Shown here: positions 14,206 through 28,309 of the stretch, piece after piece
How the letters are laid out: every line of letters starts with the position of its first letter
Position numbering within the stretch: position 1 is the first letter of the stretch
Origin: a virus
Lineage: Duplodnaviria > Heunggongvirae > Uroviricota > Caudoviricetes
DNA length: 32,154 nucleotides
Direction: 5' to 3' (one strand)
IMG/VR virus record: IMGVR_UViG_2531839665_000013
The notes under the pieces: model-generated
Seen by the model: only the letters and a program-made list of their open reading frames with translations
What the model was told of the DNA's origin: nothing
Databases searched by the model: none
Position numbers and translations under genes: made by a program

Positions 14206-14661
14206 ATGGAAATCAAAGATATTCGCTTAAAAAATCTACAGACGGTAATCCAACGCAGCGGCTTAACCCAGACAGATCTGGCGTTAAAATGTGAGATATC
14301 ACCCTCACTTATAAGCCAAATAATGACTAAGCGCAGGAATATGGGAACTGCTCTCGCTAGAAAACTCGAGGGGCGACTGAGCCTATCAGAAGGATGGTTT
14401 GACATCCCCCACTCATTGCTGGATTCCCCATGGCATCTAGCTAAAATGAGGGAAAAGACTGGTGAGACCACTATTGATGAACAGCAACTAACTAAAAGAG
14501 AGACTCGACTTATTGAGTTATTCAGACAAATGCCTGAAAGCGAAAAAGACAGGATAATCAGTGAGTTATCTGAAAAGAAACGTAATTTTGACAAACTACT
14601 TGATGAGCTAATGGCTGTTAAAGCATCAAGAATGCCGATCGACAAAGACGAAAATGAATAA
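14206..14661 (+). CDS. CI-like repressor candidate (HTH, XRE-type; no S24 peptidase domain)
   Basis: Internal start MEIKDIRLKNLQTVIQRSGLTQTDLALKCEISPSLISQIM...; divergent from cro-like gene; C-terminal part is charged and helical, not LexA-like. Confidence 0.55.
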   Translation: MEIKDIRLKNLQTVIQRSGLTQTDLALKCEISPSLISQIMTKRRNMGTALARKLEGRLSLSEGWFDIPHSLLDSPWHLAKMREKTGETTIDEQQLTKRETRLIELFRQMPESEKDRIISELSEKKRNFDKLLDELMAVKASRMPIDKDENE

Positions 14662-14773: not shown

Positions 14774-15217
14774 ATGTTAAATGATAAACATGACTCTTAT
14801 TCCGTAAACTCTCTGTTGATTTGTGCTCAAGCGGCACTATTAGGCGGTACCGCTTCAAACCATGACGTCATCAACCTCTTAGATGTTGCACAAGACATCA
14901 TCTCTTCAACTATGAATTCCTTTACAGATAGTAGCGCTCCCGGCGCTAATGTTGATTTATTTACCAAAGAAGTTAGCGCTAGTAATTCCCCAGCATTATC
15001 TTTCGGTCAACGTATTCTCCAAGCGCGTAAATCAGCAAGTCTTCAACAACATCATATTGCCAGCGGTGCTGGAGTGACTGTTCAGGCTGTTTCGTTATGG
15101 GAAAATGACTCAGCAATTCCTACTTGCGACAAAATTATCCCATTGGCAAATATTCTTGGCTGCGATCCAATGTGGTTACTGACTGGTGCTTATAAACAAA
15201 ATCAGGAGGAAGCATAA
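14774..15217 (+). CDS. HTH (XRE-family) protein with C-terminal DNA-binding domain
   Basis: C-terminal ...LSFGQRILQARKSASLQQHHIASGAGVTVQAVSLWENDSAIPTCDKIIPLANILGCDPMWLL.. is a typical XRE HTH; the track starts at GTG 14765, the ATG at 14774 has the better RBS. Confidence 0.6.
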   Translation: MLNDKHDSYSVNSLLICAQAALLGGTASNHDVINLLDVAQDIISSTMNSFTDSSAPGANVDLFTKEVSASNSPALSFGQRILQARKSASLQQHHIASGAGVTVQAVSLWENDSAIPTCDKIIPLANILGCDPMWLLTGAYKQNQEEA

Positions 15218-15782: not shown

Positions 15783-16142
15783 ATGACACATGAACCCATT
15801 AATACATATCGTCGCCGTATAGCTGTTGCGGCACTCCATCGAATAAAACGTAAAACAGGTGGTAATCTGCTTATTGTTGACCTTCCGGATGGGAACATTA
15901 CGACCATAGAAATAACTGAACAGTTTATAAACCAGTTGCTGTTACGCTTCGAAGGTATTACCCGTGGTGAATTGGGCCGGGTGGAGGGTGAAACCGAAAT
16001 CCACACTGCATACCAGAATGCTATCGGGATTAATCAACATACTGAATACCTGACTGAAACCGGAAAGTTAATTATAGACAACCTTTTTCAAGAGGTTATT
16101 GATTACGCGAAAGAAAAATATACCAGTGGAGGAATTAACTGA
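15783..16142 (+). CDS. Hypothetical protein (119 aa) with N-terminal arginine-rich motif; speculative N-like antiterminator
   Basis: N-terminal TYRRRIAVAALHRIKRK resembles arginine-rich RNA-binding motifs; position after the immunity region on the early-left transcript. Confidence 0.5.
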   Translation: MTHEPINTYRRRIAVAALHRIKRKTGGNLLIVDLPDGNITTIEITEQFINQLLLRFEGITRGELGRVEGETEIHTAYQNAIGINQHTEYLTETGKLIIDNLFQEVIDYAKEKYTSGGIN

Positions 16143-16357
16143 TGGCTAATTTATCCCCTGTATCTGTTGTGCGCGAAAAAGTGCAGATCGTTATGACAAT
16201 TGAAAATGGCCAAGTCACAGGTGTCTGCAAAGTCCGCGATGGCGAGCTGATTGCCAGCATGGATACATTCATACGGCTGGCAGAAAGAGCGGGGTATCAG
16301 ATAACAGCACCTGCTCAGGAGGAAACCGGTGGCATTAACAGCAACACGCATTCCTGA
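16142..16357 (+). CDS. Hypothetical protein (71 aa), coupled (TGATG overlap) to upstream gene
   Basis: ORF from track; start overlaps the upstream stop. Confidence 0.5.
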   Translation: MANLSPVSVVREKVQIVMTIENGQVTGVCKVRDGELIASMDTFIRLAERAGYQITAPAQEETGGINSNTHS

Positions 16358-16543
16358 GCGGATCCACCGGCAGGCATTGCAGGTCCTGTTGTTGTACCGA
16401 TGCCGACGGATATTTCCGCATCGGATACAGCGCACCGGATATCTCAGTCTGAAGGTTAACCGTCGCTGGCGGCTGTTATCGAAAGGCGACGGCCGGAACT
16501 GGGAAGTAATGAGTCATGAACGTTATTCGGGAGAAATAAAGAA

Positions 16544-16936
16544 ATGATCGACAACCGCACCGCCAGCGCCATTGACCAGGCATTACAGAAACATGATACA
16601 CCCGTCGGCCCGTTATTTTTTGTAACACGCCACGGAAGAACAAAAAAATGCCTCACCCGAAAAACGGCAATTCGTTACCTGGCATTCTTTATGACCACCC
16701 GCGCTTTTGAACGTTCAGGATTCCGACAACGCTATCCTGACAAGCGTTTTATCTTCAACGGGAATGAGATATGGAAACGTGGAGAATCAACCACAGAGTA
16801 TACCCGCGCACACCAGCGAACAATCAGACGACTGCGCAGACTCATCGCCAGGAAACAGTATACAGAAAAATGGTTCAGAAAATATGACACATGGAGCGCC
16901 GGATATTACGAACTGATGGCAACAAAACCATTCTGA
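16544..16936 (+). CDS. Hypothetical basic protein (130 aa)
   Basis: ORF from track with GGAGA RBS; Arg/Lys-rich. Confidence 0.55.
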   Translation: MIDNRTASAIDQALQKHDTPVGPLFFVTRHGRTKKCLTRKTAIRYLAFFMTTRAFERSGFRQRYPDKRFIFNGNEIWKRGESTTEYTRAHQRTIRRLRRLIARKQYTEKWFRKYDTWSAGYYELMATKPF

Positions 16937-16996
16937 CGTAAACGAAATTAACCATGACGCAATTAAATAAGGCAAGCCGAATACATCAGGAGGACC

Positions 16997-17185
16997 ATGA
17001 ACATTTATTTCAGAATAGTTATATCACTGGCAATTATCACATGTATTTACGGATTAATCGTTCCGGCCCTCATATCAATGAAGGATACGGTAGCAGTGAT
17101 TTCTGGCTTTGCTCTGGCGTGTCTGACCCCGCCCTGCATTTATGCCATTTATAAGGGTCTTTCTTTTTCTAAGGATAAAAGATGA
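16997..17185 (+). CDS. Small membrane protein (62 aa, two predicted TM helices)
   Basis: AGGAGG RBS; sequence is almost entirely hydrophobic; overlaps the next gene by 4 nt. Confidence 0.55.
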   Translation: MNIYFRIVISLAIITCIYGLIVPALISMKDTVAVISGFALACLTPPCIYAIYKGLSFSKDKR

Positions 17186-18009
17186 AAAAATTACTTTTTG
17201 CTTTAGCCCTTGTTCTGCCGACCATTGGCCTTGTCGGTTGCGATCGCGTTGAGCCTGGTAATGTGGGCATCAAAGTAAACAAACTTGGCGACGATAAAGG
17301 CGTCGGTGAAGTGGTCGGTGTTGGGCGCTACTGGACGGGATGGAACACTGAAGTTTACATCTTCCCAACCTTCAAACAAATGAAGACCTACGATGAGCCG
17401 TTCAGCTTCCAGATGAGTGACGGCACAACCATTGGCTATCACATCGGTGTTGCCTACAAAGTTGATCCATCCAAAGTTACCACGGTGTTTCAGACCTACC
17501 GCAAAGGCGTGGATGACATTACCGATACTGACCTGCGCCAGAAGATCGCCGACGCACTCAATCGACTGGCCAGCAAAATGACCACTGACAAATTTATCGA
17601 CGGCGGGAAGTCTGAACTACTGGATGCAGCTCTTAAAGACATTCAGGCAGAAATGACGCCCATCGGTATTCAGGTAATGAGTCTCTCATATGTGGGTAAG
17701 CCGGAGTACCCGCCAACCGTTATCGACAGCATTAATGCCAAAGTCACGGCGAACCAGAAAACCCTGCAACGCGAACAGGAAGTAAAACAGCGCGAAGCGG
17801 AAGCTAACATGTTGCGCGCGGAAGCTGCCGGACAGGCAGATGCGATTCGCACAAAAGCCCAGGCCGAGGCCGATGCTATTCGTTTACGCGGTGAAGCTCT
17901 GCGCCAGAACCCTGGCGTCATGGAGCTGGAAGCCATCAACAAGTGGAACGGTACTCTGCCGCAATACATGACCAGCGGTGCCAATACACCATTTATCCAG
18001 ATTAAATAA
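17182..18009 (+). CDS. SPFH/band-7 (stomatin-prohibitin-HflK/C) family lipoprotein
   Basis: Lipoprotein signal MKKLLFALALVLPTIGLVGC; C-terminal Ala/Glu-rich helix ...AEANMLRAEAAGQADAIRTKAQAEADAIRLRGEALRQNPGVMELEAINKWNGTLP typical of SPFH proteins. Confidence 0.8.
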   Translation: MKKLLFALALVLPTIGLVGCDRVEPGNVGIKVNKLGDDKGVGEVVGVGRYWTGWNTEVYIFPTFKQMKTYDEPFSFQMSDGTTIGYHIGVAYKVDPSKVTTVFQTYRKGVDDITDTDLRQKIADALNRLASKMTTDKFIDGGKSELLDAALKDIQAEMTPIGIQVMSLSYVGKPEYPPTVIDSINAKVTANQKTLQREQEVKQREAEANMLRAEAAGQADAIRTKAQAEADAIRLRGEALRQNPGVMELEAINKWNGTLPQYMTSGANTPFIQIK

Positions 18010-18037
18010 CTTACACGCCCGGCAAACCGCCGGGTTA

Positions 18038-18421
18038 ATGGAAAATCAGATGAACAACCAGAATACTCAACCGCAAATAATGAACTATGACCCGAATCTG
18101 ACGTCGTGCGGACGCATGGCAAAACAAACCGTTCGATTAACTTTCGGACTATGGGAATACCGCGAAACATTCGAAGTTACTGTCGGCGGCAATCTGACCG
18201 GACTGGATGTTATCAATTGCGCTATTGAAAGCCTGTACGCAACGCTGCCTTATGAAGAAGCCCTGGATGAGCGCACAGGGGAAACGGATATCATGGCCAC
18301 CATTAATATTGGCGAACTGATATGCCAGGATGAAGACCTGTCCGGAGAACTCTGGCTTGCCGGGATGCTTATCTCAGCAGAAATTATCAGCATTGAACCC
18401 GCTACAAACATACGGCTCTGA
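18038..18421 (+). CDS. Hypothetical protein (127 aa)
   Basis: Internal ATG of a track ORF, just after the SPFH stop. Confidence 0.45.
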   Translation: MENQMNNQNTQPQIMNYDPNLTSCGRMAKQTVRLTFGLWEYRETFEVTVGGNLTGLDVINCAIESLYATLPYEEALDERTGETDIMATINIGELICQDEDLSGELWLAGMLISAEIISIEPATNIRL

Positions 18422-18612: not shown

Positions 18613-18867
18613 ATGCAGACAATCATCTATCAGATAACCCCCAGCAAATGGTGTACGGAGAGAGTCCTTATTGCATCAACAGGGCTAAAGCCCGGCACCA
18701 TCGAGCGGGCCAGAAGAAAGTCATGGATGCAGGGAAAAGAATACCGCCATTACGCTGTAGAAGGTGATCCTGGGCATTACAGTGAATGCCTGTACAACAT
18801 CGAAGAAATTATGCGATGGATCGAAAACCAGAAACAACCAGGTGCCAAAAATGCAAGTTCCGGTTAA
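18613..18867 (+). CDS. xis: Excisionase-like protein
   Basis: 84-aa basic protein immediately upstream of int on the same strand; GAGG RBS. Confidence 0.55.
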   Translation: MQTIIYQITPSKWCTERVLIASTGLKPGTIERARRKSWMQGKEYRHYAVEGDPGHYSECLYNIEEIMRWIENQKQPGAKNASSG

Positions 18868-18900: not shown

Positions 18901-20187
18901 ATGAGTAACGCATCATACCCGACAGGCGTTGAAAACCATGGAGGATCACTCCGTATATGGTTTCACTATAATGGCAAACGTGTCAGAGAAAACCTCGGTG
19001 TTCCTGACACAGCCAAAAACCGGAAGATCGCTGGTGAACTTCGCACTTCCGTTTGTTTTGCAATCAGAATGGGGAGTTTCGACTACGCCGCGCAGTTCCC
19101 TAATTCCCCTAACCTGAAACACTTTGGTCTGGGAAAAAGAGAGATAACCGTTAAGGCACTTTCGGAAAAATGGTTGGACCTTAAGAAAATTGAGATAGGA
19201 AGTAATGCATTCAGTCGGTATCAATCCGTGGTGAGAAACATGCTTCCTCGCATAGGGGAAAAACGTCTTGCTTCGTCGGTAACAAAGGAAGATTTACTGT
19301 TTATCAGGAAAGATTTGTTAACCGGGTATCATAATCTCTCTAACGGAAAAACAACGCCGATTAAAGGGAGGTCAGTAGTTACGGTTAATTACTACATGAC
19401 GACAATTGCAGGAATGTTTCAATTTGCGGCTGATAACGGCTATATCGTGTCAAACCCATTTAACGGCCTGACACCATTAAAGAGATCCAGAACAGAACCA
19501 GATCCGCTCACACGAGACGAATTTATTCGTTTTATTGATGCCTGTCACCATCAACAAACGAAAAACCTGTGGTCCTTAGCAGTATACACAGGCATTCGTC
19601 ACGGTGAGCTAATATCTCTCGCTTGGGAGGATATTGATTTAAAAGCTAAAACAATGACTATCCGTCGTAATTATACAAAACTCGGGGAGTTCACTCTACC
19701 AAAAACAGAAGCGGGAACTGATCGTGTTATTCATCTTGTTCAACCAGCTGTTGATGCCCTGAAAAGCCAGGCTGAAATGACAAGACTTGGCCCTCAGTAT
19801 CAAATTGACGTCAAGCTTCGGGAGTTCGGTCGCACTGCACGCCATGAATGCACGTTTGTTTTTAATCCGCAACTGGTGAAAAAATGCCAGCAAGTCGGTC
19901 ACCACTATAAAGCAGATTCCATCAGAGATTCCTGGGCATCTGCATTAAGGCGAGCAGGACTGCGGCACAGAAAAGCCTATCAGTCCAGGCATACTTATGC
20001 CTGTTGGGCATTATCGGCAGGAGCGAATCCAAGCTTCATAGCAAACCAAATGGGCCATGCAAATGCACAAATGGTATTCAACGTTTACGGAGCATGGATG
20101 AAAGATAACAATATCGGGCAAATAGAACTACTCAATAAGCAGTTGACGGAGAGTGTCCCATACATGCCCCATAGAGCCAGACTCTGA
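18901..20187 (+). CDS. int: Tyrosine integrase (lambda Int family)
   Basis: 428 aa; C-terminal catalytic region with ...YTGIRHGELISL... (Arg), ...HANAQMVFNVYGAWM... and RHTYA; N-terminal arm-binding-like region; last gene before the host junction. Confidence 0.9.
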   Translation: MSNASYPTGVENHGGSLRIWFHYNGKRVRENLGVPDTAKNRKIAGELRTSVCFAIRMGSFDYAAQFPNSPNLKHFGLGKREITVKALSEKWLDLKKIEIGSNAFSRYQSVVRNMLPRIGEKRLASSVTKEDLLFIRKDLLTGYHNLSNGKTTPIKGRSVVTVNYYMTTIAGMFQFAADNGYIVSNPFNGLTPLKRSRTEPDPLTRDEFIRFIDACHHQQTKNLWSLAVYTGIRHGELISLAWEDIDLKAKTMTIRRNYTKLGEFTLPKTEAGTDRVIHLVQPAVDALKSQAEMTRLGPQYQIDVKLREFGRTARHECTFVFNPQLVKKCQQVGHHYKADSIRDSWASALRRAGLRHRKAYQSRHTYACWALSAGANPSFIANQMGHANAQMVFNVYGAWMKDNNIGQIELLNKQLTESVPYMPHRARL

Positions 20188-20697: not shown

Positions 20698-22221
20698 ATG
20701 AAACGTGTAATCAGCTACATCAGATTCAGTTCTGAGCGACAAGCCAAAGGCGACTCACTACGCAGACAGTCTAAGATGGTTAATGACTGGCTTAAGGCTC
20801 ATCCTGAGTACTACCTTGACCAAGATTTATCCTTCCGTGATTTAGGTGTGAGTGGATTCACTGGTAAGCACTTGAAAGGTGGCTTAGGTGACTTCTTAAC
20901 CGCTATCGAGAAAGGGCTTGTTAAAGCTGGTGATACGCTCTTGATAGAATCTCTTGACCGTTTGTCACGTCAGGCCGTAGACCGAGCAAGTGAGCTATTA
21001 CGAAACATTCTTCGCTCTGGTGTAGATGTAGTCACCCTGTCCGATGGTGAACATTACACAAGTGAGTCTCTTAAAGACCCGTTAGCTCTGATTAAGTCCA
21101 TCTTGATTATGCAAAGAGCACATGAAGAGAGTCTGCGTAAATCTGAACGTATACAAGCTGCATGGAACCGTAAAAAAGAACTCATCTCTGAAGGTATCAA
21201 GATTTCTAAGCGTTGTCCTGCATGGTTAAGGCTGAATGATGACCGTAAAAGCTTCTCTGTAATCCCTGAGAAGGTAGAAACTGTGAAGAGGTGCTTTCAG
21301 CTACGATTAGAGGGTAAGTCTATCTGGGAGATTGTTCGGACTCTTAATGATGAAGGTCACCAGACGCTTAACCAGCACAAAGCGGGTTCATTTGGTCAAA
21401 GCTCAGTACAAGACCTTTTGAAGAATCGTTCTGTAATTGGTTACTTCACACCTAAAGGCTGTGAGGAGATATCTGGTTATTTCCCCCCTATCATCCCTGA
21501 GACTGATTTCTACAAAGTCCAGCAACTATCATATTCTCGTTATGGAAGAAAGCCTGCTTCAGATAAACCATTGAGTGTGAATCTCTTTAAAGGTGTTATC
21601 CGTTGTTCTGAATGTGGTCATGCTCTGATTATCACAGGCTTTAGCGATACAAGAAACGGGATTTATCGTTGTCCTCTTCGTAATGAAAACCGTTGTAGTG
21701 CTAAAGGGCTGTCACGTAAGCAAACCGATGGTACATTGCTTACCCTGCTATCTCGTCTTGACCGATTTGATAGCGATACGACGAATACCATAGATATGTT
21801 GAGGCTACACCGTGAACACATCTCAAGCAATATTGAAAAGCTGGTACAGCTATCACTTGAAATTGAAGATTTGTCAGCTATTACCATCAAACTAAAGCAG
21901 TTAAAAGGTGAGCTATCACAGGTTGATGCGGATATCGAGAAGGAGACACAACGCCTTAAATCTATTGATGTGGGGTGTTTGTCCGATTGTGACTTGACTA
22001 CAAAGGCGGGAAGGATTGAAGCACAACTGATAATCAAAAGTGCTGTTAAAGAGGTCGTTTTAAATACTGCTAAACGTCGCTGTAAAGTAACTTTTCACAA
22101 CGGTAAAGCAATCACCTTACCAATAACAGAAAACCCCTCAGAGGACGTTACAGAGGCTATACAGTCGCTTTCTGAAGTCACTGAGAGGGGGTTGATAGAT
22201 GTTGATGAGGTTATCATATAG
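20698..22221 (+). CDS. Large serine recombinase (resolvase/invertase N-terminal catalytic domain + recombinase domain + zinc ribbon)
   Basis: N-terminus VISYIRFSSERQ (catalytic Ser), ...LLIESLDRLSR...; 507 aa; Cys cluster CSECGH...YRCPLRNENRC; long C-terminal coiled coil. Confidence 0.88.
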   Translation: MKRVISYIRFSSERQAKGDSLRRQSKMVNDWLKAHPEYYLDQDLSFRDLGVSGFTGKHLKGGLGDFLTAIEKGLVKAGDTLLIESLDRLSRQAVDRASELLRNILRSGVDVVTLSDGEHYTSESLKDPLALIKSILIMQRAHEESLRKSERIQAAWNRKKELISEGIKISKRCPAWLRLNDDRKSFSVIPEKVETVKRCFQLRLEGKSIWEIVRTLNDEGHQTLNQHKAGSFGQSSVQDLLKNRSVIGYFTPKGCEEISGYFPPIIPETDFYKVQQLSYSRYGRKPASDKPLSVNLFKGVIRCSECGHALIITGFSDTRNGIYRCPLRNENRCSAKGLSRKQTDGTLLTLLSRLDRFDSDTTNTIDMLRLHREHISSNIEKLVQLSLEIEDLSAITIKLKQLKGELSQVDADIEKETQRLKSIDVGCLSDCDLTTKAGRIEAQLIIKSAVKEVVLNTAKRRCKVTFHNGKAITLPITENPSEDVTEAIQSLSEVTERGLIDVDEVII

Positions 22222-22235
22222 TTGAGATTCTATCG

Positions 22236-23009
22236 TCAGTATCGCTTGTTAGGATTAACAGAATACTTCTTCAAAGTACTACCTGTACCAGCATTATTAA
22301 GCACCTTTGAAGCTTGCTCATTAGCGGCATCTGAGAAGGTGCTTTTTCCATTCTCAACTTTGACACTTTTACCACAATTGATACGGGCTTGAAGTTGCTC
22401 ATTAGTGAGTTCACTCGTAGAGCGATTATATAGCTCCTGACACATCAACATACCATTACCTAAACTTGTTGTAGTGTTACCTGTATTCTTCTTACTGGTA
22501 GCACCACCATCATTCGTAGTCGCGGCTTTTCCAGTTGCAGCCGAGATATCAGTCTGTCCCACAACAGCTCTGAAGTTAATTTCCTGAAAAGTTAGTTGGA
22601 TTCTTAATCCGTTTGAAATTCCAACATCTTTAGAGGCTTTAAAACTCGTAATAATGGAATCATCAATCTTGATACCGTCTTTACAGATGACCGAAATAAT
22701 TTGCTTCTGGTCACGCCAGCTTTCGAGAGTGTCAATGAAGTTTTCTACTAATTGACCCTGACGAGTTAATAATAAGCTTCCTTCATAGCCAACTACAACG
22801 ACACCACTAATAGTGATTGTTCTGGGTGCTCTTTGCACATTATCTGTGACGGTTTGCCCTGATTGCATGTTCTGTGTAGTCACCTGCATAGGACTATCAA
22901 ATTCCATGTTTTCAGTTGCTGATAAGGTTAAGAAGGCATCTACATTGTCTCTTAAGTGGAAATAGATGCCATCTTTGCCACTATATCTAAGTTGTTTTTT
23001 GTCAAACAT
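22236..23009 (-). CDS. Hypothetical protein (257 aa) downstream of the tape-measure gene; possible distal tail protein
   Basis: Position only (gene after TMP); Thr/Gly/Asn-rich central region. Confidence 0.55.
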
Positions 23010-23098
23010 TGTTGTATTCCTCTTAAGGGTGAGCTACATGAATACACCTGAGTAGTTATAGGTCGTAATTTTTAATTTTCACGTAGAACACCGTTAAA

Positions 23099-25147
23099 TC
23101 AATCATCTTCTGGATAGCTTGAACTTAATAGCGTAGCTTCTGCGTATTGGTCGTAGATATTACTGCTAAAGGTCATAAAGCTGGTTTCATCTGGTTTAAT
23201 GGCAACTTCACCACCAAGTGAAACTTTCACAGGCTCCTGAATACGTTTGCTCAAAGCACTAATTTCATCTCTCAGGCTTTGGATATCCGTATTCGTTAAT
23301 GCCGCATCTTGTCTCATGGTGATTAATTCTGGATGCTGGAAGTTAGCAAGATTCATAGCTGCACTATTAAACCAACCTTTCACATCATCCATAGTGAACA
23401 CTGGTTTAAGTCCAGACTCTTTAGCTAGCTCTGGTAATTTAGCTTGTGCTTCCATTCGTTCAGGTGTAGAAGCTAATCTCTCATAACCTGCATAGATAGC
23501 ACTACCAGCTAATAGCATATTCCCAAGATTAAACCTTGATGGTTTCCCGTTCTTTCTATTCACGTTATCCGCTGTAGTATCAGCGACCTGACCTAATCTT
23601 GTGATAGCAGTCATAAGCCCGTAAATACTTCTGGTTACACCAACAACTTTATTCACAGCAATAACACCAGCCAAGACTTTTAAACTATTAATCAAGCCAG
23701 AACCTAAAGCATCAACTACTTTCTTTTGTTCATCGGTTAAACCACGATAAGCTAATGTCACCTCATCGAAGAATGCTCTTACCCTGTAAGAAATATCGGT
23801 TAGTGAATCGACCCCATGCGACATATCACTCATCAAGCTACCAAAACTTTCACCTAATGTTTTACCACTCCCACCTAAACTATTTAAAAGATTGGTTAAG
23901 CTTCTTGTGAAATCTTGAAGACCATCTTCAGAACCTCTGAAGATATCCGTTAGTGAGTTGTTCCAAGTATTCTTCAAGTTCCCTAGCATTGTCTGCGTAG
24001 AGTCCTGAATAGCTTTCCAGCCACCTCTTGAATTAATCTGTGAACCAAGTTCTTTAGCAAACTTAGGGAGTGCATCAGAGGCTTTAACATCACCATTTTT
24101 CATCTTATCGAAAAGCTGTTTTTCAGTCAGACCTAAAGCCTTTGCAAATGCCTGAGTAGCACCCGGTAAAGCTTCAGATAGTTGCCCCTTAAGTTCTTCA
24201 GCCATCACCTGACCCTTAGAAGCCATCTGCGACACTGCGGTTAATGCTCTTTGAATCTGCTCATCTGAACGACCCATTAAACGAGAATAACCTGTAAGGT
24301 TTTTAAATAATTCCTCTGCCCCTTCAAGACCCATCGTGTTCTTTGCAGATGCACCAAATGAAGCAAATTGCGCTTGTGTTTCGGTTGTGTCCATACCAGT
24401 AATTTGAGTTAAATCCTGAATGAACTTTTTAACCTGTGTACTTTGGTCACCGAATACGAAATCAATACTTCTTTCCGATGATGCACGTTGAAGGCCAACT
24501 TCCATAATCTTCTGATAACTGGCTAATACAGCCTGAAAGCTGATAAATGCACCTGCTGTTTTAACTGCTGCTGAACTCAAACTATCAAGACTATTAGCTG
24601 CTCTGTCACCATTAATGCTGGTGGATGTATGACCTTTAGCTTTAGCAATTGCTTCTCTGACTGAAGCATTTAGCTGAGCCAGCTTCTCATTGAATTTTGA
24701 AGAATCCATTGAACCGGCTTTAGCAGATAGCCCGTAAAACTGAGATTTGATGTATTTCTGCAAAATAGGGTCAAAGCCTTTTAGCTTAGACATATTAGCT
24801 GAGTAAGCCGCTGTGATTGCTCTGTTGCCGCTAATTCGTGGCTGTCTTGGTTGTTTTGGAGGATTAACAGTGTCATTAAATCTGGTGGCAAACTGAAATG
24901 CTCTTGTGTTTCTTGCTCTCTGTTCAATCTTGTCAAAGGTCTTATTAAACTTCCTTTCAAGTTGCCCTAAAGAACTTGTCAGATTGCTGTCAAGCTGCTT
25001 TGTATTAATCCTGAAACCTTTATTTAGGTTCTTTTCAATTCTTTGTGCTGACTGCAAAGCTGCCTTTTCAACTCTTTGCAAGCCCTTAATAACGTTTTCA
25101 CTGAAGCCTAGCTCAACGATAAAACTATCAACTTTAAACTGTGCCAT
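23099..25147 (-). CDS. Phage tail tape measure-like protein (682 aa)
   Basis: Core motif ...MASKGQVMAEELKGQLSEALPGATQAFAKALGLTEKQLFDKMKNGDVKASDALPKFAKELG... is typical of tape-measure proteins; AAGAGGTGA RBS. Confidence 0.75.
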   Translation of the reverse strand: MAQFKVDSFIVELGFSENVIKGLQRVEKAALQSAQRIEKNLNKGFRINTKQLDSNLTSSLGQLERKFNKTFDKIEQRARNTRAFQFATRFNDTVNPPKQPRQPRISGNRAITAAYSANMSKLKGFDPILQKYIKSQFYGLSAKAGSMDSSKFNEKLAQLNASVREAIAKAKGHTSTSINGDRAANSLDSLSSAAVKTAGAFISFQAVLASYQKIMEVGLQRASSERSIDFVFGDQSTQVKKFIQDLTQITGMDTTETQAQFASFGASAKNTMGLEGAEELFKNLTGYSRLMGRSDEQIQRALTAVSQMASKGQVMAEELKGQLSEALPGATQAFAKALGLTEKQLFDKMKNGDVKASDALPKFAKELGSQINSRGGWKAIQDSTQTMLGNLKNTWNNSLTDIFRGSEDGLQDFTRSLTNLLNSLGGSGKTLGESFGSLMSDMSHGVDSLTDISYRVRAFFDEVTLAYRGLTDEQKKVVDALGSGLINSLKVLAGVIAVNKVVGVTRSIYGLMTAITRLGQVADTTADNVNRKNGKPSRFNLGNMLLAGSAIYAGYERLASTPERMEAQAKLPELAKESGLKPVFTMDDVKGWFNSAAMNLANFQHPELITMRQDAALTNTDIQSLRDEISALSKRIQEPVKVSLGGEVAIKPDETSFMTFSSNIYDQYAEATLLSSSYPEDD

Positions 25148-25174
25148 TGTTCATATTTCACCTCTTAAGTGTTC

Positions 25175-25206
25175 ATAGACTTCGGATAGAAGACTATCCT
25201 CATATA
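25175..25206. promoter_or_regulatory. 32-bp element ATAGACTTCGGATAGAAGACTATCCTCATATA (copy 1), containing palindrome GGATAG-AAGA-CTATCC; upstream of the TMP gene
   Basis: Identical copy at 26891-26922. Confidence 0.6.
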
Positions 25207-25301
25207 CAAAAAAGGGAGAAACTACCGAATAATATCGATAATCTCTCCCCGTGTTATAGATTCGATAGAACCTATCTCATACACCCAACCAATTCTTTTT
25301 T

Positions 25302-25511
25302 TTAATGCCTGACAAGATAATGTAATTCCGTTTCACCTATGATTTGGGCATCAGAAGGGATACGGTCGATACACCACTTTGGAATCTTGCGTGTTTTTGG
25401 TTTGTGTGAGGTGATAACTTGACGTTTGTTTTTAATTCTTAAGGCTGGATTGGCTTGTAACTTTAAGTTTTCACAAACAGACCGAATAGTCTCTAAACGT
25501 TCTTCAATCAT
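25302..25511 (-). CDS. Hypothetical small protein (69 aa)
   Basis: GAGGTGA RBS directly before the ATG; start context TGAGGTGATGAATG shared with the next gene. Confidence 0.45.
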   Translation of the reverse strand: MIEERLETIRSVCENLKLQANPALRIKNKRQVITSHKPKTRKIPKWCIDRIPSDAQIIGETELHYLVRH

Positions 25512-25533
25512 TCATCACCTCATAATTCAATTT

Positions 25534-25842
25534 TCACTCCAAGAAGCGAATGCACTTTACACCGCGTTCATTCTTTACAATTTCGTAACGTATTGAGAGA
25601 CCAGCTTTATCAAAGATAGATTCAAGCCGTCCTACATCACGCTTGAGGTCTCTAATAAGGAAGGTTAAATCATCTCGACCCTCAAACTTTAGTTCGGCAA
25701 GAGGCTTTTCTTCCATACGACCAATAAGATATTCAGTGACCTCCTGAATATCACCAAGAGTCGTTTTAATTTCATTGAACCTATCTTCAAAAGGTTCCAT
25801 TACCCCTTTAATTCTTTTATCGCGTTCTGTTAAATCATTCAT
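25534..25842 (-). CDS. Hypothetical acidic protein (102 aa)
   Basis: GAGGTGA RBS; ORF from track. Confidence 0.55.
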   Translation of the reverse strand: MNDLTERDKRIKGVMEPFEDRFNEIKTTLGDIQEVTEYLIGRMEEKPLAELKFEGRDDLTFLIRDLKRDVGRLESIFDKAGLSIRYEIVKNERGVKCIRFLE

Positions 25843-25850
25843 TCATCACC

Positions 25851-26555
25851 TCAAATAGCCTTGCTAAATTCTCGTGGAACACTCAGAAAATCATTGAAGC
25901 TGATAATCTGTGCCAACTCTTGACGGTACTCCTTAGCCAACGCTTGATGGTCACTAATCAGCTTAGCCAGTCTTGATTTCAGCAAATTAATCTCATTTTC
26001 TCTTGCTTTCATCAGTTTCTCTTTGGCAATTTCTTCAAGCTCAGCCTGTGATTTATCAGCAACAATTAGAGACAGTCGATGTGGTGCTCTGACAGCTCTT
26101 TCTGTACGAATAACTCTTTGACCTTCTGGTAAATCTGCAATCACTTTACCAATCTCTACAGGGTCATACCCCCAACCGTCACGGTCCAGTCGAGAGAAAT
26201 AAGCATAAGAATTGGTTTGAAGCTCCATCGAAATAGCCATTTCGTCAATTTCGTCTTCAAGCTTGGACTGAATTTTCTCGTAAACACTTCTCATTGCTTC
26301 TTGAGAGTCTTTAATAGCTTGGAAATATCGGCGTTGTAGCTTCAACTTCAAATCAAGTTCACACTGTTCGTTCATAGAAAAATCAATTTCAACTCTTGGA
26401 ATCTCGAGTGGTTCTGGTGGAATATATGGACCTTTATTTACTTCGTGTGATTCCCGCCAAGCTCTATCAAAAGATTCACGCAAAGTTAATTCGTGAATAT
26501 CAAGTGCACTTGGTCGGCTTTCAATAATCATTTCATTTTCATCACGGATAGCCAT
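25851..26555 (-). CDS. Hypothetical protein (234 aa), highly charged with coiled-coil character
   Basis: ORF from track. Confidence 0.6.
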   Translation of the reverse strand: MAIRDENEMIIESRPSALDIHELTLRESFDRAWRESHEVNKGPYIPPEPLEIPRVEIDFSMNEQCELDLKLKLQRRYFQAIKDSQEAMRSVYEKIQSKLEDEIDEMAISMELQTNSYAYFSRLDRDGWGYDPVEIGKVIADLPEGQRVIRTERAVRAPHRLSLIVADKSQAELEEIAKEKLMKARENEINLLKSRLAKLISDHQALAKEYRQELAQIISFNDFLSVPREFSKAI

Positions 26556-26890
26556 TAATACCTTTCCTCTTCTAAGATAATTTATGTTTCAGTTTTTAAA
26601 AAGCACACCTGACATCCTCGAACTTAGAAGAGGCTTAAAAGGCGGTTTGCCAAGTATGCTTTTTAAAAGCTGAAAAAGCCCTAGATAACTAAAACGCTAT
26701 AAAGGGCTAAGGTGAAGAAATTAAAGAACATCTAAAGGATTCAATGAATGAACAAAGACTTTTCGAGATGACCTCTCAGACTAACCTGAAAGGCCATGTA
26801 GCGAAAAGCATTGCACCTTTCCAACTCAGAATATAGTTATCATCGATGTAGAATGATTAATATTTTAATTCAAGGAGAATTGCTCCCCCT

Positions 26891-26922
26891 ATAGACTTCG
26901 GATAGAAGACTATCCTCATATA
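26891..26922. promoter_or_regulatory. 32-bp element, copy 2 (identical to 25175-25206)
   Basis: Read directly. Confidence 0.6.
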
Positions 26923-26979
26923 TACAATTATGTCATGCTCAAGGTTATTTGTCAACAGCTTTTAACAGATTGGTAACAT

Positions 26980-27045
26980 TTATACTTTAATAGATGCACC
27001 TGCAATCATACCAATCAATACAAAACAGATAATCACCAATCCCAT
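26980..27045 (-). CDS. Possible 21-aa hydrophobic peptide (MGLVIICFVLIGMIAGASIKV), TAATG-coupled to the upstream gene
   Basis: Hand-translated; start overlaps the stop of the 27045-27374 ORF. Confidence 0.25.
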   Translation of the reverse strand: MGLVIICFVLIGMIAGASIKV

Positions 27046-27374
27046 TAATGCACCACCTTCGAATCCGTCACCAAAATATTGTCAGCGTACAAAATTGCTA
27101 TAGCTGCCTTGAGATATCTTTCAGGGCTAACGCTGTATTTGCTCGTTTGCTCGATAACCAATCTTTTCATGTTGCTGTCTTTAATTGGTAGCATCATTCG
27201 AGGCTCGTTAAACTCCACCGACTGAATAAAGTCAGAGATGCTTTCCGCATTATCAGTCATTAACTCTAACAACTTATCAAAGTCAATGCTAATACCTGCA
27301 TCAGTGAAGCTTTGCACCATCATAGCGGTGTCGTTATCAATAAAAATCTGTAGTGGGAAGTTTAATTCTCTCAT
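27045..27374 (-). CDS. Hypothetical acidic protein (109 aa)
   Basis: AAGGAG RBS; ORF from track. Confidence 0.55.
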   Translation of the reverse strand: MRELNFPLQIFIDNDTAMMVQSFTDAGISIDFDKLLELMTDNAESISDFIQSVEFNEPRMMLPIKDSNMKRLVIEQTSKYSVSPERYLKAAIAILYADNILVTDSKVVH

Positions 27375-27523
27375 TTCCTAAAATCTCCTTTTTACCATAC
27401 CTCCTCAATCGCTCTGTAACGAGCTAAACAGTCTTTTTCAGGGGTAGCATGTAGGGGTGTACCACATACCTAAAATAAGATAGTTTTTTGCGTTAGAATG
27501 CGATTGAGAGCGTCTGAGAAGCT
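27375..27523 (-). repeat. Left arm of a ~150-bp imperfect inverted repeat (promoter/5' leader of the 27045-27374 gene)
   Basis: Aligns by eye with the reverse complement of 30293-30445; shared blocks GCTTCTCAGACGCTCT, TTAGAATGCG, TAAAATAA, GTGGTACA, CTACCCCT, GCTCG(T/C)TACAGAGC. Confidence 0.55.
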
Positions 27524-27552
27524 GTTTTTCTAATTTCTCTTAAAGTCTCGGA

Positions 27553-27753
27553 CTACCAATAACCTAATTCCGCTTTATTTCGTTCAAACCATTCCGCTGT
27601 AACTGCTGTCTTTAGTGTTGCGTTTGGGCTGGTGGCATGAATGAAGATATCTTTTGGATTGCAAGCATCACCGAAACCACCTTCTTTGATGAGCAGGTCT
27701 GATACATGCTTAATCATTTTATCTGTCAAATATTCGAATTTAATACATAGCAT
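27553..27753 (-). CDS. Hypothetical small protein (66 aa from the Met that overlaps the HNH stop)
   Basis: TAATG overlap with the upstream HNH gene; the track ORF extends to 27786. Confidence 0.45.
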   Translation of the reverse strand: MLCIKFEYLTDKMIKHVSDLLIKEGGFGDACNPKDIFIHATSPNATLKTAVTAEWFERNKAELGYW

Positions 27754-28025
27754 TAAATCTCCAGTAGTAAATTGTTTGGGTCGCAATTTCTTTTATTACC
27801 ATCCCTGAAGATAATTTTTTTAGTTGCCTGAACTTCATGATGCAAAAACCAGATGACATACTTCAGATAATAATCACGAGTGCCATAACGAATCATTGGA
27901 TTACCGTAAGCATCATCTCTTGTCTTAACTTCTCCACCATCAATCCATTCAAGCATTCCTGTTTCGTAATTAATCATGAAGTAAGTTGCAAAGAACCGTT
28001 TAATATCATCTCGCCATTGCTTCAT
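27753..28025 (-). CDS. HNH-type endonuclease (small, homing-endonuclease-like)
   Basis: ...HHEVQATKKIIFRDGNKRNCDPNNLLL... fits the HNH His...Asn...Asn pattern; AGGAAG RBS. Confidence 0.6.
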   Translation of the reverse strand: MKQWRDDIKRFFATYFMINYETGMLEWIDGGEVKTRDDAYGNPMIRYGTRDYYLKYVIWFLHHEVQATKKIIFRDGNKRNCDPNNLLLEI

Positions 28026-28027
28026 AA

Positions 28028-28309
28028 TCAGACTTCCTGAGACAGTTTGTGAATTTTGATACTTAGTAACCTTGCTAAATCCAGTCCAAAAGCATTTAAA
28101 GATTTCAGACTATCAAGGTCATCTTTCTTAATCCTGACATGGTGTCTTGCTGCCTCTAAACGACTATTAAGCAAATCCTGCTCGTTAATATCACGGTTAA
28201 TTGCAAGCTTCATCACTGCTGAGTGTGGCAGACCTGTAATGTTTTTGATTCGGTTAAGTTCTTCAAAGGCTGTCTTTGTAACTCTGGTTAGCGTGTGTTT
28301 ATTTCCCAT
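28028..28309 (-). CDS. Hypothetical small protein (93 aa), possibly a DNA-binding regulator
   Basis: Internal Met of a track ORF; ATG sits 1 nt after the upstream stop (TAA-A-ATG). Confidence 0.45.
   Translation of the reverse strand: MGNKHTLTRVTKTAFEELNRIKNITGLPHSAVMKLAINRDINEQDLLNSRLEAARHHVRIKKDDLDSLKSLNAFGLDLARLLSIKIHKLSQEV

What the first reader, a model, noticed from the sequence alone, without database searches (positions are those of the whole stretch)
16997..18009. Small membrane peptide plus SPFH/band-7 lipoprotein pair in the early-left accessory region
A 62-aa two-TM peptide overlaps by 4 nt a 275-aa SPFH lipoprotein. Cellular SPFH proteins usually pair with NfeD-type membrane partners and organise membrane proteases or microdomains. 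A prophage-encoded pair expressed from the early-left operon is a reasonable candidate for superinfection exclusion (blocking DNA injection) or membrane-based abortive infection. I do not know it as a named defence system.
Basis: partly seen in the sequence, partly recalled or inferred. Interest (0 to 1): 0.6.

Follow-up and report, generated by a model that had tools for sequence, protein, structure and literature searches.

The report
Phage-borne SPFH lipoprotein with hairpin partner
The two overlapping genes are real: they are a prophage copy of an ancient, widespread, uncharacterised module (the same pair as phage N4 gp19/gp20) that probably builds an HflK/C-like protein cage on the outer face of the inner membrane, but nothing yet shows that it defends against phages.

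Summary
Observation confirmed. Window 16997-17185 encodes a 62-aa two-helix membrane hairpin. It overlaps by ATGA the gene at 17182-18009 for a 275-aa SPFH/Band_7 lipoprotein (lipobox LVGC, Asp+2). The host element is a phiP27-like lambdoid prophage at yecE in E. coli.

The peptide ORF is genuine. It is intact in 80/80 related loci, has dN/dS about 0.16, and belongs to a family of about 490 clusters at 50% identity. The pair is one conserved cassette. It occurs in:
- phiP27/Stx phages, P2-like P88, and P1-like and SSU5/pMT1-like phage-plasmids;
- strictly lytic phages, including N4 gp19/gp20 (61% identity);
- Pseudomonas and Burkholderia phages and a conjugative element;
- chromosomal housekeeping neighbourhoods in Dyella and Leptospira.

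The lipoprotein model matches every cage-forming SPFH protein over its full length. The peptide is not NfeD. PADLOC gives no hit, and I found no functional study.

Best reading: a periplasm-facing SPFH cage with the hairpin as a trans-acting membrane anchor, expressed in early or middle phage transcription units. Its biological role is untested; membrane conditioning or exclusion of incoming DNA are the leading candidates. The prophage-defence reading is neither supported nor excluded. I rate it a new variant of a known kind, of moderate interest, and directly testable in N4.

The parts
16988..16993 (+). Shine-Dalgarno AGGAGG for the hairpin peptide gene
   Evidence: Read directly from the sequence; 3 nt before the ATG at 16997.
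16997..17185 (+). Gene for the 62-aa inner-membrane helical hairpin. TM1 is about aa 4-26, the periplasmic turn is S-M-K-D (aa 27-30), TM2 is about aa 31-52, and the C-tail is basic (KGLSFSKDKR). Family motif P-x-[LM]-[IV]-S-x-x-[DS]-[ST]. PHROG 1130; orthologue of N4 gp19.
   Evidence: ORF; PHROG 1130 at E 1.5e-23; intact in 80/80 loci; dN/dS 0.16; alignments; AF2 hairpin; charge bias; 489 family clusters.
17182..17185 (+). ATGA start/stop overlap, i.e. translational coupling of the two genes
   Evidence: Sequence. A 4-nt overlap, another short overlap or a gap of a few nt recurs in P88, phiP27, MY01, PAN70, phiE125, Xenorhabdus, Sutterella, Pseudomonas, Saprospirales, Sphingomonas and Nodosilinea.
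17182..17241 (+). Lipoprotein signal peptide and lipobox (L-V-G-C; Cys20 codon at 17239-17241), followed by Asp+2. This point is also the mosaic boundary between the divergent peptide/signal block and the conserved mature block.
   Evidence: Sequence; Cys invariant in 12 homologues; nucleotide identity to P88 is 0.42 over the peptide, 0.60 over the signal and 0.90 over the mature part.
17245..17805 (+). SPFH/Band_7 domain (aa 22-208)
   Evidence: Pfam PF01145 at E 8e-31; AF2 model; Foldseek matches.
17713..17907 (+). Long Ala/Glu/Gln-rich helix (aa 178-242), the 'wall' helix of SPFH cages
   Evidence: AF2 secondary structure H178-242; aligned to HflK, HflC and prohibitin-2 coiled-coil regions.
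17941..17961 (+). Conserved C-terminal motif K-W-N-G-x-L-P (aa 254-260), a candidate cap or oligomerisation element
   Evidence: K254, W255, G257 and P260 are invariant in 12 homologues down to 31% identity. The region is modelled with low confidence.
18017..18035 (+). GC-rich stem-loop just after the SPFH stop codon, with no U-tract. Possibly a transcript-stabilising or weak termination element.
   Evidence: RNA fold -14.1 kcal/mol, z -2.6; not called as a terminator by the scan.

Best explanation
The two genes form one translationally coupled unit that encodes a two-component membrane scaffold.

The 275-aa product is exported, lipidated at Cys20 and, through Asp+2, most likely kept in the inner membrane. 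Only three residues separate the lipid anchor from the first beta-strand, so the SPFH domain lies flat on the periplasmic leaflet. The mature protein has all the parts of an SPFH cage protomer: an SPFH domain, a wall helix of about 65 residues, and a conserved C-terminal motif.

I infer that it oligomerises into an HflK/C-, prohibitin- or QmcA-like ring or cage on the periplasmic face of the inner membrane. The 62-aa hairpin (N-in/C-in) exposes only a 4-5 residue conserved turn, exactly where the base of the SPFH domain would sit. I infer that it supplies in trans the transmembrane palisade that other SPFH proteins carry in cis or receive from NfeD, probably at 1:1 stoichiometry. Together they would fence off a patch of inner membrane.

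The module is an old cellular one that many mobile elements have captured. In phages it lies in early or middle (lytic-programme) transcription units.

For the payoff to the phage, my committed guess is conditioning of the inner membrane during the lytic programme: keeping it intact and energised, or controlling access to a fenced patch. Exclusion of secondary DNA entry is the most attractive specific consequence.

Shown: gene structure, coupling, lipobox, fold, conservation of the pairing, and distribution. Inferred: inner-membrane localisation, cage formation, hairpin-SPFH contact, and the biological role. My rough split for the role is membrane conditioning or lysis timing 0.35, exclusion 0.25, protease modulation 0.12, other 0.28.
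For: - Fold: Band_7 hit. The model aligns over its full length (244-307 columns, E 3e-13 to 1e-7) to prohibitin, HflK/C, erlin, stomatin, flotillin, vault and QmcA-YbbJ cage protomers, and it contains a 65-residue helix.
- Lipoprotein: the lipobox Cys is invariant across the family. The family also occurs in monoderm Actinobacteria (Aurantimicrobium, Iamiaceae), where the only possible location is the outer face of the cytoplasmic membrane.
- Hairpin: topology from the AF2 model and charge bias; conserved turn motif.
- Pairing: found next to the SPFH gene in at least 53 of 80 species-level genome loci spanning Proteobacteria, Leptospira, Bacteroidota, Cyanobacteria, Actinobacteria and Dependentiae. 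Starting instead from distant peptide hits, 4 of 4 informative contigs have a Band_7 gene directly downstream. Start/stop overlaps are frequent.
- Precedent: QmcA-YbbJ forms a cage of 26 SPFH-partner heterodimers (Tan et al. 2024, as cited in PMC13086221).
- Cellular origin: Dyella and Leptospira chromosomal contexts.
- Lytic-programme placement: N4 gp19/gp20 lie just downstream of the RNAPII genes; in P88 the pair lies between cox and the replication gene in the P2-type early operon; in the window it lies between the regulators and xis-int, with no promoter of its own predicted.
- Very strong purifying selection on the mature SPFH domain and 76-91% nucleotide identity between unrelated phage types. 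This fits a partner that is a conserved host structure rather than a fast-evolving phage protein.
Against: - No experiment exists. Localisation, oligomerisation and hairpin contact are all inferred.
- The AF2 model has only moderate confidence (mean pLDDT 71, C-terminal 33 residues below 50).
- No complex model could be made with these tools.
- Inner-membrane retention by Asp+2 with Arg+3 is a rule-based prediction. Other family members carry Ser, Glu, Asn or Tyr at +2.
- A large Shigella/E. coli lineage keeps the SPFH gene without the hairpin gene (L094/L095), so the lipoprotein may work alone, or that copy may be decaying.
- The hairpin and signal-peptide block is exchanged freely relative to the mature SPFH block. 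This argues against an intimate co-evolved interface beyond the short turn motif.
- In Pseudomonas prophages the pair follows the cI-like repressor gene directly. That is the classic position of genes expressed in the lysogen to exclude other phages.
Confidence: 0.5

Rival explanations
1. Superinfection or entry exclusion. The cage and hairpin at the periplasmic face of the inner membrane would block formation or use of the inner-membrane channel through which incoming phage or plasmid DNA enters, for example by corralling the host proteins used as entry ports or by occluding insertion of ejection proteins.
For: - The location and architecture resemble known exclusion devices: small inner-membrane proteins plus periplasmic or lipoprotein components, such as T4 Imm/Sp, TP-J34 Ltp, T5 Llp and Cor (my background knowledge; PMC7677548 and PMC3952083 appeared).
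- It is carried by both lytic and temperate phages in early regions, as T4 imm and sp are.
- In Pseudomonas prophages it lies immediately downstream of the cI-like repressor, the position of rexAB in lambda.
- It is also found in a conjugative element between TraM-like and KorB genes, where entry-exclusion genes are common.
- N4's superinfection-exclusion system is explicitly uncharacterised (PMC12642591). N4 gp18, next to the pair, is annotated as similar to P22 gp17.
- The hairpin is the fast-evolving, swappable part, as expected of a specificity determinant.
Against: - No hit in PADLOC, and no paper links SPFH to phage defence.
- Syntenic chromosomal copies sit in non-mobile contexts.
- The mature SPFH domain is almost invariant between phages with completely different injection machineries: podo-, myo- and siphoviruses.
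- In the window no promoter is predicted that would express it in the lysogen.
Confidence: 0.25
2. HflK/C mimic that modulates a host membrane protease. The phage cage would capture or displace FtsH (or HtpX or another inner-membrane protease) and change the turnover of phage or host substrates. In temperate phages this would shift the lysis-lysogeny decision (CII, CIII and Xis are FtsH substrates in lambda). In lytic phages it would stabilise phage membrane proteins.
For: - The nearest sequence and structure relatives include HflK and HflC (NCBIfam TIGR01932/TIGR01933 at E 1e-5 to 6e-5; PDB 7vhq/7vhp at E 1e-3; Foldseek matches).
- HflK/C SPFH domains are also periplasmic and cage FtsH (PDB 7wi3 and 9cz2 titles).
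- This idea has been suggested for a Pseudomonas satellite prophage SPFH gene (PMC4936722).
Against: - Scores are far below the HflK/HflC equivalog cut-offs (24.6 against 134 bits).
- There is one SPFH gene, not a K/C pair, and a lipid anchor in place of an N-terminal TM helix.
- Many carriers are strictly lytic phages with no lysogeny decision.
- No protease gene is linked to the pair in any context examined.
Confidence: 0.12
3. Toxic hairpin under SPFH control (abortive infection or lysis timing). The 62-aa protein would be a holin-like pore former that the cage sequesters until a trigger releases it.
For: The topology is that of class II holins and pinholins: about 60-70 aa, two TMs, N-in/C-in, basic C-tail (the holin comparison is background knowledge). 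One family member gives a weak hit to a holin Pfam family at E 0.038.
Against: - That hit is not significant, and 0 of 9 members hit any holin family at a meaningful E-value.
- The prophage and N4 have their own lysis cassettes elsewhere (PMC12642591).
- Stable chromosomal copies in Dyella and Leptospira and presence in lytic phages argue against a suicide module.
- The conserved part is a polar periplasmic turn, not a holin-like feature.
Confidence: 0.05
4. Lysogenic-conversion or virulence lipoprotein. A surface- or vesicle-released triacylated lipoprotein that acts on the animal host, as claimed for the prophage-encoded HflK/C-like PM0222 of Pasteurella multocida.
For: PMC9872710 reports a prophage-island SPFH protein of 25-35 kDa that was detected in the cultured wild-type lysogen, found in outer-membrane vesicles, acted as a TLR1/2 agonist, and attenuated virulence when deleted. 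The window comes from an E. coli prophage of the Stx-phage phiP27 type.
Against: - I could not verify that PM0222 belongs to this family, because the sequence was not retrievable.
- TLR2 agonism is generic to lipoproteins.
- This role cannot explain the lytic phages, environmental bacteria (Dyella, Sphingomonas, cyanobacteria) or the conserved hairpin partner.
Confidence: 0.05

Closest known systems
Phage N4 gp19/gp20, together with phiP27 L05, P88 'putative SPFH domain protein' and pMT1 YPMT1.49c / pHCM2 HCM2.0006c
   Same: True orthologues. N4 gp20 is 61% identical over the full length, with a lipobox. N4 gp19 is a 68-aa two-TM protein with the same turn motif, and it overlaps gp20 by 8 nt. 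phiP27 L05 is 98% identical.
   Different: None has a tested function. The hairpin gene is unannotated in phiP27 and in the P1-like records. The window's hairpin belongs to a different sequence type from those of P88, the P1-like records and Pastis.
E. coli HflK/HflC-FtsH complex
   Same: SPFH domain plus long helix facing the periplasm from the inner membrane. It is among the best sequence and structure matches. It is the paradigm of a cage that fences a membrane patch.
   Different: HflK/C is a heteromer of two paralogues, each with an N-terminal TM helix, and has a known client (FtsH). Here there is a single SPFH gene, a lipid anchor, a separate hairpin partner, and scores far below the family cut-offs.
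SPFH-NfeD operons (QmcA-YbbJ, PDB 8z5g; stomatin PH1511-PH1510; FloA-NfeD)
   Same: An SPFH gene adjacent to and co-transcribed with a small membrane-partner gene. QmcA-YbbJ is a cage of 26 heterodimers. Foldseek matches QmcA at E 2.6e-7.
   Different: The partner here has no NfeD/OB-fold domain and no detectable similarity to YbbJ. The cage would face the periplasm rather than the cytoplasm. The SPFH protein is lipid-anchored.
Superinfection-exclusion membrane proteins (T4 Imm and Sp, P22 SieA, HK97 gp15, Ltp, Llp/Cor)
   Same: Small phage-encoded inner-membrane or lipoprotein components made early, or from the immunity region. This is an analogy of place and timing only.
   Different: No sequence or family relationship was detected. 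The best PHROG hits are the uncharacterised families 1130 and 200. No exclusion phenotype is known.
Pasteurella multocida prophage protein PM0222 (HflK/C-like)
   Same: A prophage-borne SPFH protein of similar size. It is the only prophage SPFH protein with experimental data that I found.
   Different: Membership of the same subfamily is not verified. The reported role (TLR1/2 agonist in vesicles) concerns the animal host, not phage biology.

Membership tests
SPFH / Band_7 superfamily | Band_7 (PF01145) domain above the gathering threshold | tested here: met
   107.8 bits against a cut-off of 23.6, residues 22-208.
SPFH / Band_7 superfamily | Cage-protomer architecture: SPFH domain followed by a long helix and a C-terminal segment | tested here: met
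   AF2 helix 178-242. Full-length Foldseek alignments to prohibitin, HflK/C, erlin, stomatin, flotillin and QmcA.
SPFH / Band_7 superfamily | Assembly into a large homo- or hetero-oligomeric ring or cage on a membrane | not testable with these tools
   Only monomer prediction is available; this needs cryo-EM or native mass spectrometry.
Bacterial lipoprotein | Signal peptide ending in a lipobox [LVI][ASTVI][GAS]C | tested here: met
   MKKLLFALALVLPTIGLVGC. The Cys is invariant in 12 homologues and a lipobox is found in most genome loci.
Bacterial lipoprotein | Inner-membrane retention (Lol avoidance) signal at +2 | tested here: inconclusive
   Asp at +2 in the window and in the CDRVE enterobacterial homologues; CERA in Chimaeribacter, Xenorhabdus, Morganella and LNA4; Tyr in N4. 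Rule-based only; other clades have S, N, G or Q.
HflK/HflC (FtsH modulators) | Score above the NCBIfam equivalog cut-off | tested here: not met
   24.6 and 22.7 bits against cut-offs of 134.4 and 159.4.
HflK/HflC (FtsH modulators) | Two paralogous SPFH subunits, each with an N-terminal TM helix | tested here: not met
   A single SPFH gene with a lipobox; the neighbours are a hairpin and DUF5406.
HflK/HflC (FtsH modulators) | Physical association with FtsH | not testable with these tools
   Needs pull-down or structure determination.
SPFH-NfeD pair | Partner protein with an NfeD (PF01957) / OB-fold C-terminal domain | tested here: not met
   No Pfam hit at E up to 10 in 9 family members. No PDB hit, which includes YbbJ of 8z5g. 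The peptide is only 62 aa.
SPFH-NfeD pair | Membrane-partner gene adjacent to and co-oriented with the SPFH gene | tested here: met
   ATGA overlap. Adjacency is conserved in at least 53 of 80 genomes and in 4 of 4 reciprocal look-ups.
Known anti-phage defence systems (PADLOC-DB v2) | HMM match of any component | tested here: not met
   0 families for the peptide, the SPFH protein and their neighbours at E up to 0.1.
Known anti-phage defence systems | Protection phenotype against phage | not testable with these tools
   Requires an expression and challenge experiment. No report was found.
Class II holin / pinholin | Small protein with two TMs, N-in/C-in, and a charged C-terminus | tested here: met
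   (topology only).
Class II holin / pinholin | Membership of a holin family and location in the lysis cassette next to the endolysin | tested here: not met
   No significant holin Pfam hit. In the matching genome the prophage's holin and lysozyme lie about 13 kb away on the other strand (L001 4173-4926).
PHROG 1130 + PHROG 200 (phage 'membrane protein' + 'lipoprotein') | Profile matches | tested here: met
   E 1.5e-23 and 4.6e-114. Both families lack a functional annotation.

The most novel reading that the evidence does not exclude
The hairpin and SPFH-lipoprotein cassette is a generic 'DNA-entry gate blocker' of mobile elements. A periplasm-facing SPFH cage would enclose or occlude the inner-membrane sites through which incoming phage or plasmid DNA crosses. 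On this reading it is the so far unidentified superinfection-exclusion system of N4-like phages (and hence the upstream trigger of N4 lysis inhibition), with the fast-evolving, swappable hairpin setting specificity.
Probability: 0.2. Interest if true: 0.8.

Novelty: new variant of a known kind. Interest (0 to 1): 0.5.

Why it matters
SPFH cages (HflK/C, prohibitin, stomatin, flotillin, erlin) have only recently been visualised, and what they enclose is an open question. This cassette would be a minimal version that faces the periplasm, is lipid-anchored, and carries a non-NfeD hairpin partner.

It is present in about 10% of complete E. coli genomes, in hundreds of phage-plasmids, and in at least 382 sequenced phages. 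Those include the model phage N4, where both genes (gp19/gp20) are unstudied and the superinfection-exclusion and lysis-inhibition trigger is still unknown.

Recognising that the Stx-type prophage genes, N4 gp19/gp20 and the chromosomal genes of Dyella and Leptospira are one module makes the function testable in a tractable system. It would also put a name on two large families: PHROG 200, and the unannotated hairpin family of about 490 clusters. If the role turns out to be ordinary membrane homeostasis, the finding is a useful annotation but not a new defence system.

Tried and rejected
- PADLOC scan of both proteins and five neighbours: no hits.
- NfeD hypothesis for the peptide: rejected. 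There is no Pfam hit at E up to 10 and no PDB hit, which includes YbbJ.
- 'Serine protease', the label used in many phage records: rejected as an annotation artefact. The only domain is Band_7, and the weak 'protease' PHROG hit (E 7e-4) covers only the coiled coil.
- Literature: eight full-text searches plus targeted reads found only statements that the function in phages is unclear, together with the Pasteurella PM0222 study. The N4 lysis preprint reports no rapid-lysis mutations in gp19/gp20, and the CRISPRi-ART paper does not mention them.
- Own promoter in front of the pair: none predicted.
- PM0222 sequence (OAZ06802.1): could not be retrieved, so its orthology is untested.
- Antisense ORF 17670-18170 (166 aa): dismissed. 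It overlaps the Ala-rich helix region, and the plus-strand frame is under very strong purifying selection.
- First IMG/VR scan: returned only near-identical relatives. That was useful for dN/dS but not for diversity, so I used the species-level genome scan and individual phage records instead.
- A model of the complex could not be made. The tool predicts single chains only and accepts only window or database sequences.
Full report
**1. What is at the coordinates**

The window carries, on the + strand, a 62-aa ORF at 16997-17185. It is preceded by AGGAGG, and its stop overlaps, as ATGA, the start of a 275-aa ORF at 17182-18009.

The larger protein has a Band_7/SPFH domain (PF01145, E 8e-31, residues 22-208). 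Its N-terminus, MKKLLFALALVLPTIGLVGC|DRVE, is a textbook lipoprotein signal with Asp at +2.

The smaller protein has two hydrophobic helices joined by S-M-K-D and ends in a basic tail. AlphaFold2 with 21 homologues gives a helical hairpin (H2-26, H31-60, pLDDT 80). Over 42 family members the net charge is +1.2 at the N-terminus, -0.45 in the turn and +2.7 in the C-tail. By the positive-inside rule this means N-in/C-in, with only the turn in the periplasm.

**2. Where the window comes from**

The region around the pair is 100% identical to E. coli chromosomes that carry a phiP27-like lambdoid prophage integrated next to yecE (DUF72), followed by yecN and cmoA. The window matches strain AUSMDU00002545 with a constant offset from about 6.5 to 20.9 kb.

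The pair lies in a co-directional gene string:
- two HTH regulators (14206-14661 and 14774-15217);
- several small ORFs;
- a ParE-like ORF (16329-16547);
- a PHROG 1886 ORF (16544-16936);
- the pair;
- DUF5406 (18050-18421);
- a DUF4222 remnant;
- xis (18613-18867) and int (18901-20187).

Replication genes, the Q antiterminator, lysis genes and terminase are on the opposite strand. 'Early-left accessory region' is a fair description. No sigma-70-like promoter is predicted between 15812 and 18900 on the + strand.

**3. The peptide ORF is a real gene**

- It matches PHROG 1130 ('membrane protein', E 1.5e-23).
- In 80 related IMG/VR loci the ORF is intact every time, in 17 protein variants.
- Across 27 distinct alleles the median pairwise dN/dS is 0.16. 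The SPFH gene gives 0.03, and its mature part gives 0.011 between the window and phiP27.
- A profile of 21 members finds 489 clusters at 50% identity among 1.84 billion representatives. Almost all are 55-90 aa and are matched end to end.
- The family has no Pfam model, no solved relative and no name.

**4. The two genes are one conserved cassette**

The same arrangement, a small two-TM ORF overlapping or abutting the SPFH lipoprotein gene, is present in many unrelated elements:
- phiP27 (L05; the peptide is unannotated) and P2-like phage P88;
- P1-like phage-plasmids (peptide unannotated);
- N4 (gp19/gp20, 8-nt overlap; gp20 is 61% identical);
- N4-like Erwinia phage Pastis (81%) and Klebsiella phage MY01;
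- Pseudomonas phage PAN70;
- Burkholderia phage phiE125 (gp44/gp43).

In some phages the arrangement is looser:
- In rV5-like LNA4 the hairpin gene lies one small ORF upstream.
- In FelixO1-like Fifi318 a two-TM ORF lies about 400 nt upstream.
- phiCbK-like RBC57 has a larger multi-TM ORF in that position.
- Bruynoghevirus Clew-1 has a single-TM ORF there.

All hairpins share a turn motif, P-x-[LM]-[IV]-S-x-x-[DS]-[ST].

In a scan of one genome per species, at least 53 of 80 SPFH loci have the hairpin gene directly upstream. These span Enterobacterales, Sutterella, Dyella and other Xanthomonadales, Pseudomonas, Leptospira, Sphingomonas, Saprospirales and other Bacteroidota, a cyanobacterium, Actinobacteria and Dependentiae.

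The reciprocal test also holds. I sampled six distant hairpin hits. The four whose contigs extend downstream all have a Band_7 gene immediately after the hairpin gene. The other two contigs end at the hairpin gene.

**5. Distribution**

- tblastn finds the SPFH protein in 382 of 50,697 phage records. These include Schitoviridae, Vequintavirinae, Ounavirinae, phiCbK-like, crAss-like and Lak phages, and temperate phages of Pseudomonas and Burkholderia.
- It is found in 612 plasmid records. Of these, 593 are non-mobilizable and mostly 95-115 kb, the size and type of P1-like and SSU5/pMT1/pHCM2-like phage-plasmids.
- It is found in 535 of 5,426 complete E. coli genomes.
- One hairpin-SPFH pair lies in a conjugative element between TraM-like and KorB genes.

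The pair also sits in ordinary chromosomal neighbourhoods. In Dyella it lies between BlaR1/BlaI and DUF2076/nrdAB, and this arrangement is syntenic in two species. In Leptospira it lies next to sdhA/sdhC and an EAL protein. The cassette is therefore an old cellular module that mobile elements have captured repeatedly. It is accessory, not universal.

**6. Structure**

The AlphaFold2 model (pLDDT 71) has an alpha/beta SPFH domain, a continuous helix from residue 178 to 242, and a poorly modelled C-terminus.

Foldseek against the PDB aligns it over 244-307 columns to the protomers of every cage-forming SPFH protein: prohibitin (8rrh, E 3e-13), HflK/HflC (7vhq, 7wi3, 9cz2), erlin, stomatin, flotillin, the vault shoulder and QmcA of the QmcA-YbbJ complex. 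By sequence the nearest solved proteins are HflK and prohibitin-2, matched through the helix region. NCBIfam HflC/HflK models score far below their cut-offs.

Across 12 homologues down to 31% identity the invariant positions include the lipobox Cys, the V-x-x-G-x-V-G strand three residues after it, and K-W-x-G-x-x-P near the C-terminus.

**7. Mechanistic reading (inference)**

- With three residues between the lipid and the first strand, the SPFH domain must lie on the membrane that holds the lipid.
- The partner is an inner-membrane hairpin that exposes only a 4-5 residue conserved turn.
- Asp+2 is the enterobacterial inner-membrane retention signal (established Lol-avoidance rule).
- The family exists in monoderm Actinobacteria.

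All four points place the protein on the outer leaflet of the cytoplasmic membrane. By analogy with HflK/C, and with QmcA-YbbJ (26 heterodimers; PMC13086221 citing Tan et al. 2024), I propose a ring or cage facing the periplasm, with hairpins providing the transmembrane fence in trans. The frequent start/stop overlap fits equimolar synthesis. None of this has been tested.

**8. What it does for a phage**

The carriers include strictly lytic phages. In N4 the pair follows the RNAPII genes. In P88 it is inside the cox-to-replication early operon. So at least there it acts during lytic growth, not as a lysogen's shield.

The mature SPFH block is nearly invariant. It is 85-91% identical at the nucleotide level between lambdoid, P2-like and P1-like elements, and 76-82% identical to a lytic Erwinia phage. 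The block upstream of the lipobox, holding the hairpin and signal peptide, is unalignable (about 40%). Hairpin similarity does not track SPFH similarity: 37% to LNA4 with the SPFH protein at 52%, against 16% to P88 with the SPFH protein at 93%. This suggests a conserved host-side target for the SPFH part and a modular, faster-evolving hairpin.

My estimates for the role are:
- General inner-membrane conditioning during infection (integrity, energisation, lysis timing): about 0.35.
- Exclusion of incoming DNA: about 0.25. It is supported by the position next to cI-like repressors in Pseudomonas prophages, by the conjugative-element context, and by the fact that N4's exclusion system is still unknown (PMC12642591).
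- An HflK/C-like effect on FtsH or another protease: about 0.12.
- A holin-like toxin or a virulence lipoprotein: about 0.05 each.

**9. Comparison with what is known**

It is a member of the SPFH superfamily and of PHROGs 200 and 1130. It is an orthologue of N4 gp19/gp20 and phiP27 L05, all uncharacterised.

It is not HflK/C: the cut-offs are not met, there is a single subunit, and the anchor is a lipid. It is not an SPFH-NfeD pair, because the partner lacks the NfeD domain. It is not in PADLOC.

Papers that mention phage SPFH genes call their function unclear or poorly understood (PMC13239085, PMC7760394), or merely recall HflK/C and lambda CII (PMC4936722). The one experimental study concerns a Pasteurella prophage protein described as a TLR1/2-activating virulence factor (PMC9872710). 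I could not verify that it belongs to this subfamily.

**10. Verdict**

The defence interpretation is a reasonable but unsupported hypothesis. The wider distribution makes a prophage-specific defence role less likely than a general membrane function used during the lytic programme.

What is new is the recognition of a conserved two-gene module: a periplasm-facing, lipid-anchored SPFH scaffold with a non-NfeD hairpin partner. It links Stx-type prophages, phage-plasmids, N4 and cellular genomes. I rate it a new variant of a known kind, with interest 0.5.

Noticed in passing
window 16142-16547: A ParE-like toxin ORF (16329-16547; Pfam ParE_like E 1.7e-16; PHROG 1525) overlaps by 29 nt an upstream 71-aa ORF (16142-16357; PHROG 340). 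This is a candidate antitoxin-toxin pair in the same operon as the SPFH cassette.
   Followed up: partly
window 17182-17241, compared with L002, L003 and L006: There is a sharp mosaic boundary at the lipobox. Nucleotide identity to P88, the P1-like record and Pastis is about 0.4 over the hairpin gene, 0.53-0.60 over the signal peptide, and 0.76-0.91 over the 5' and middle parts of the mature SPFH segment. Hairpin type and SPFH similarity are uncoupled.
   Followed up: partly
L094 and L095, about 5700-6828 (Shigella flexneri and E. coli chromosomes): This is a 96%-identical SPFH gene that belongs to the largest protein cluster (P0001, 1366 members). It lacks the hairpin gene: unrelated sequence replaces it right up to the Shine-Dalgarno sequence, and transposase-like ORFs lie nearby. 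It is either an SPFH-only variant or a decaying prophage.
   Followed up: partly
L012 1450-2274 (Pseudomonas phage Clew-1): The SPFH gene is annotated as a 242-aa protein without a signal peptide. The frame in fact continues upstream to I-K-K-I-L-G-L-L-A-I-A-A-L-A-I-T-A-G-C, with an ATT codon 6 nt after an AAGGA. It is probably a lipoprotein with a non-canonical ATT start.
   Followed up: partly
window 18017-18035: A 7-bp GC-rich stem-loop lies 8 nt after the SPFH stop codon (-14.1 kcal/mol, z -2.6) with no U-tract.
   Followed up: partly
window about 20900-32154, e.g. 20698-22221: Beyond the integrase and the truncated yecE, the window stops matching the otherwise identical reference chromosome. 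It encodes a 507-aa large serine recombinase (Resolvase + Recombinase + Zn_ribbon_recom), which suggests a second integrated element next to the prophage.
   Followed up: no
window 6961-7127 (- strand): Two prophage tRNA-Arg genes (anticodons TCT and TCG) lie upstream of the lysis region.
   Followed up: no
L156, L160, L166, L168-L170, L172 (Bacteroidota/Cytophagales): In these genomes the SPFH lipoprotein gene is preceded not by the hairpin but by a different ORF of 75-162 aa with one N-terminal hydrophobic segment. Six of the seven end in (N/A/S)(L/F)RI. This may be an alternative partner family.
   Followed up: no
L177-L179, 2501-3620: A hairpin and Band_7 (307 aa) pair is embedded in a conjugative-element backbone between a TraM-like activator and KorB/ParB, near a TraI relaxase and NikA-like genes. 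In two of the three contigs it also lies next to a Fic-domain gene.
   Followed up: no
L013 2658-3825 (Caulobacter phage RBC57); L011 2748-3795 (Erwinia phage Fifi318): RNA-repair or tRNA genes (two RtcB-like RNA ligase ORFs; a tRNA nucleotidyltransferase) lie just downstream of the SPFH gene. A 2026 paper notes a P. aeruginosa SPFH gene inside the rtc locus. This may be coincidence.
   Followed up: no
L008 1332-1496 (phage LNA4): A 54-aa ORF of unknown function is inserted between the hairpin gene and the SPFH gene in this rV5-like phage.
   Followed up: no
phage records LC5678xx, AJ298298, MN163281 and others: Many deposited phage genomes label this SPFH lipoprotein 'serine protease'. No protease domain is detectable. 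The label probably propagated from the 'membrane protease subunit' naming of the stomatin/prohibitin COG.
   Followed up: partly
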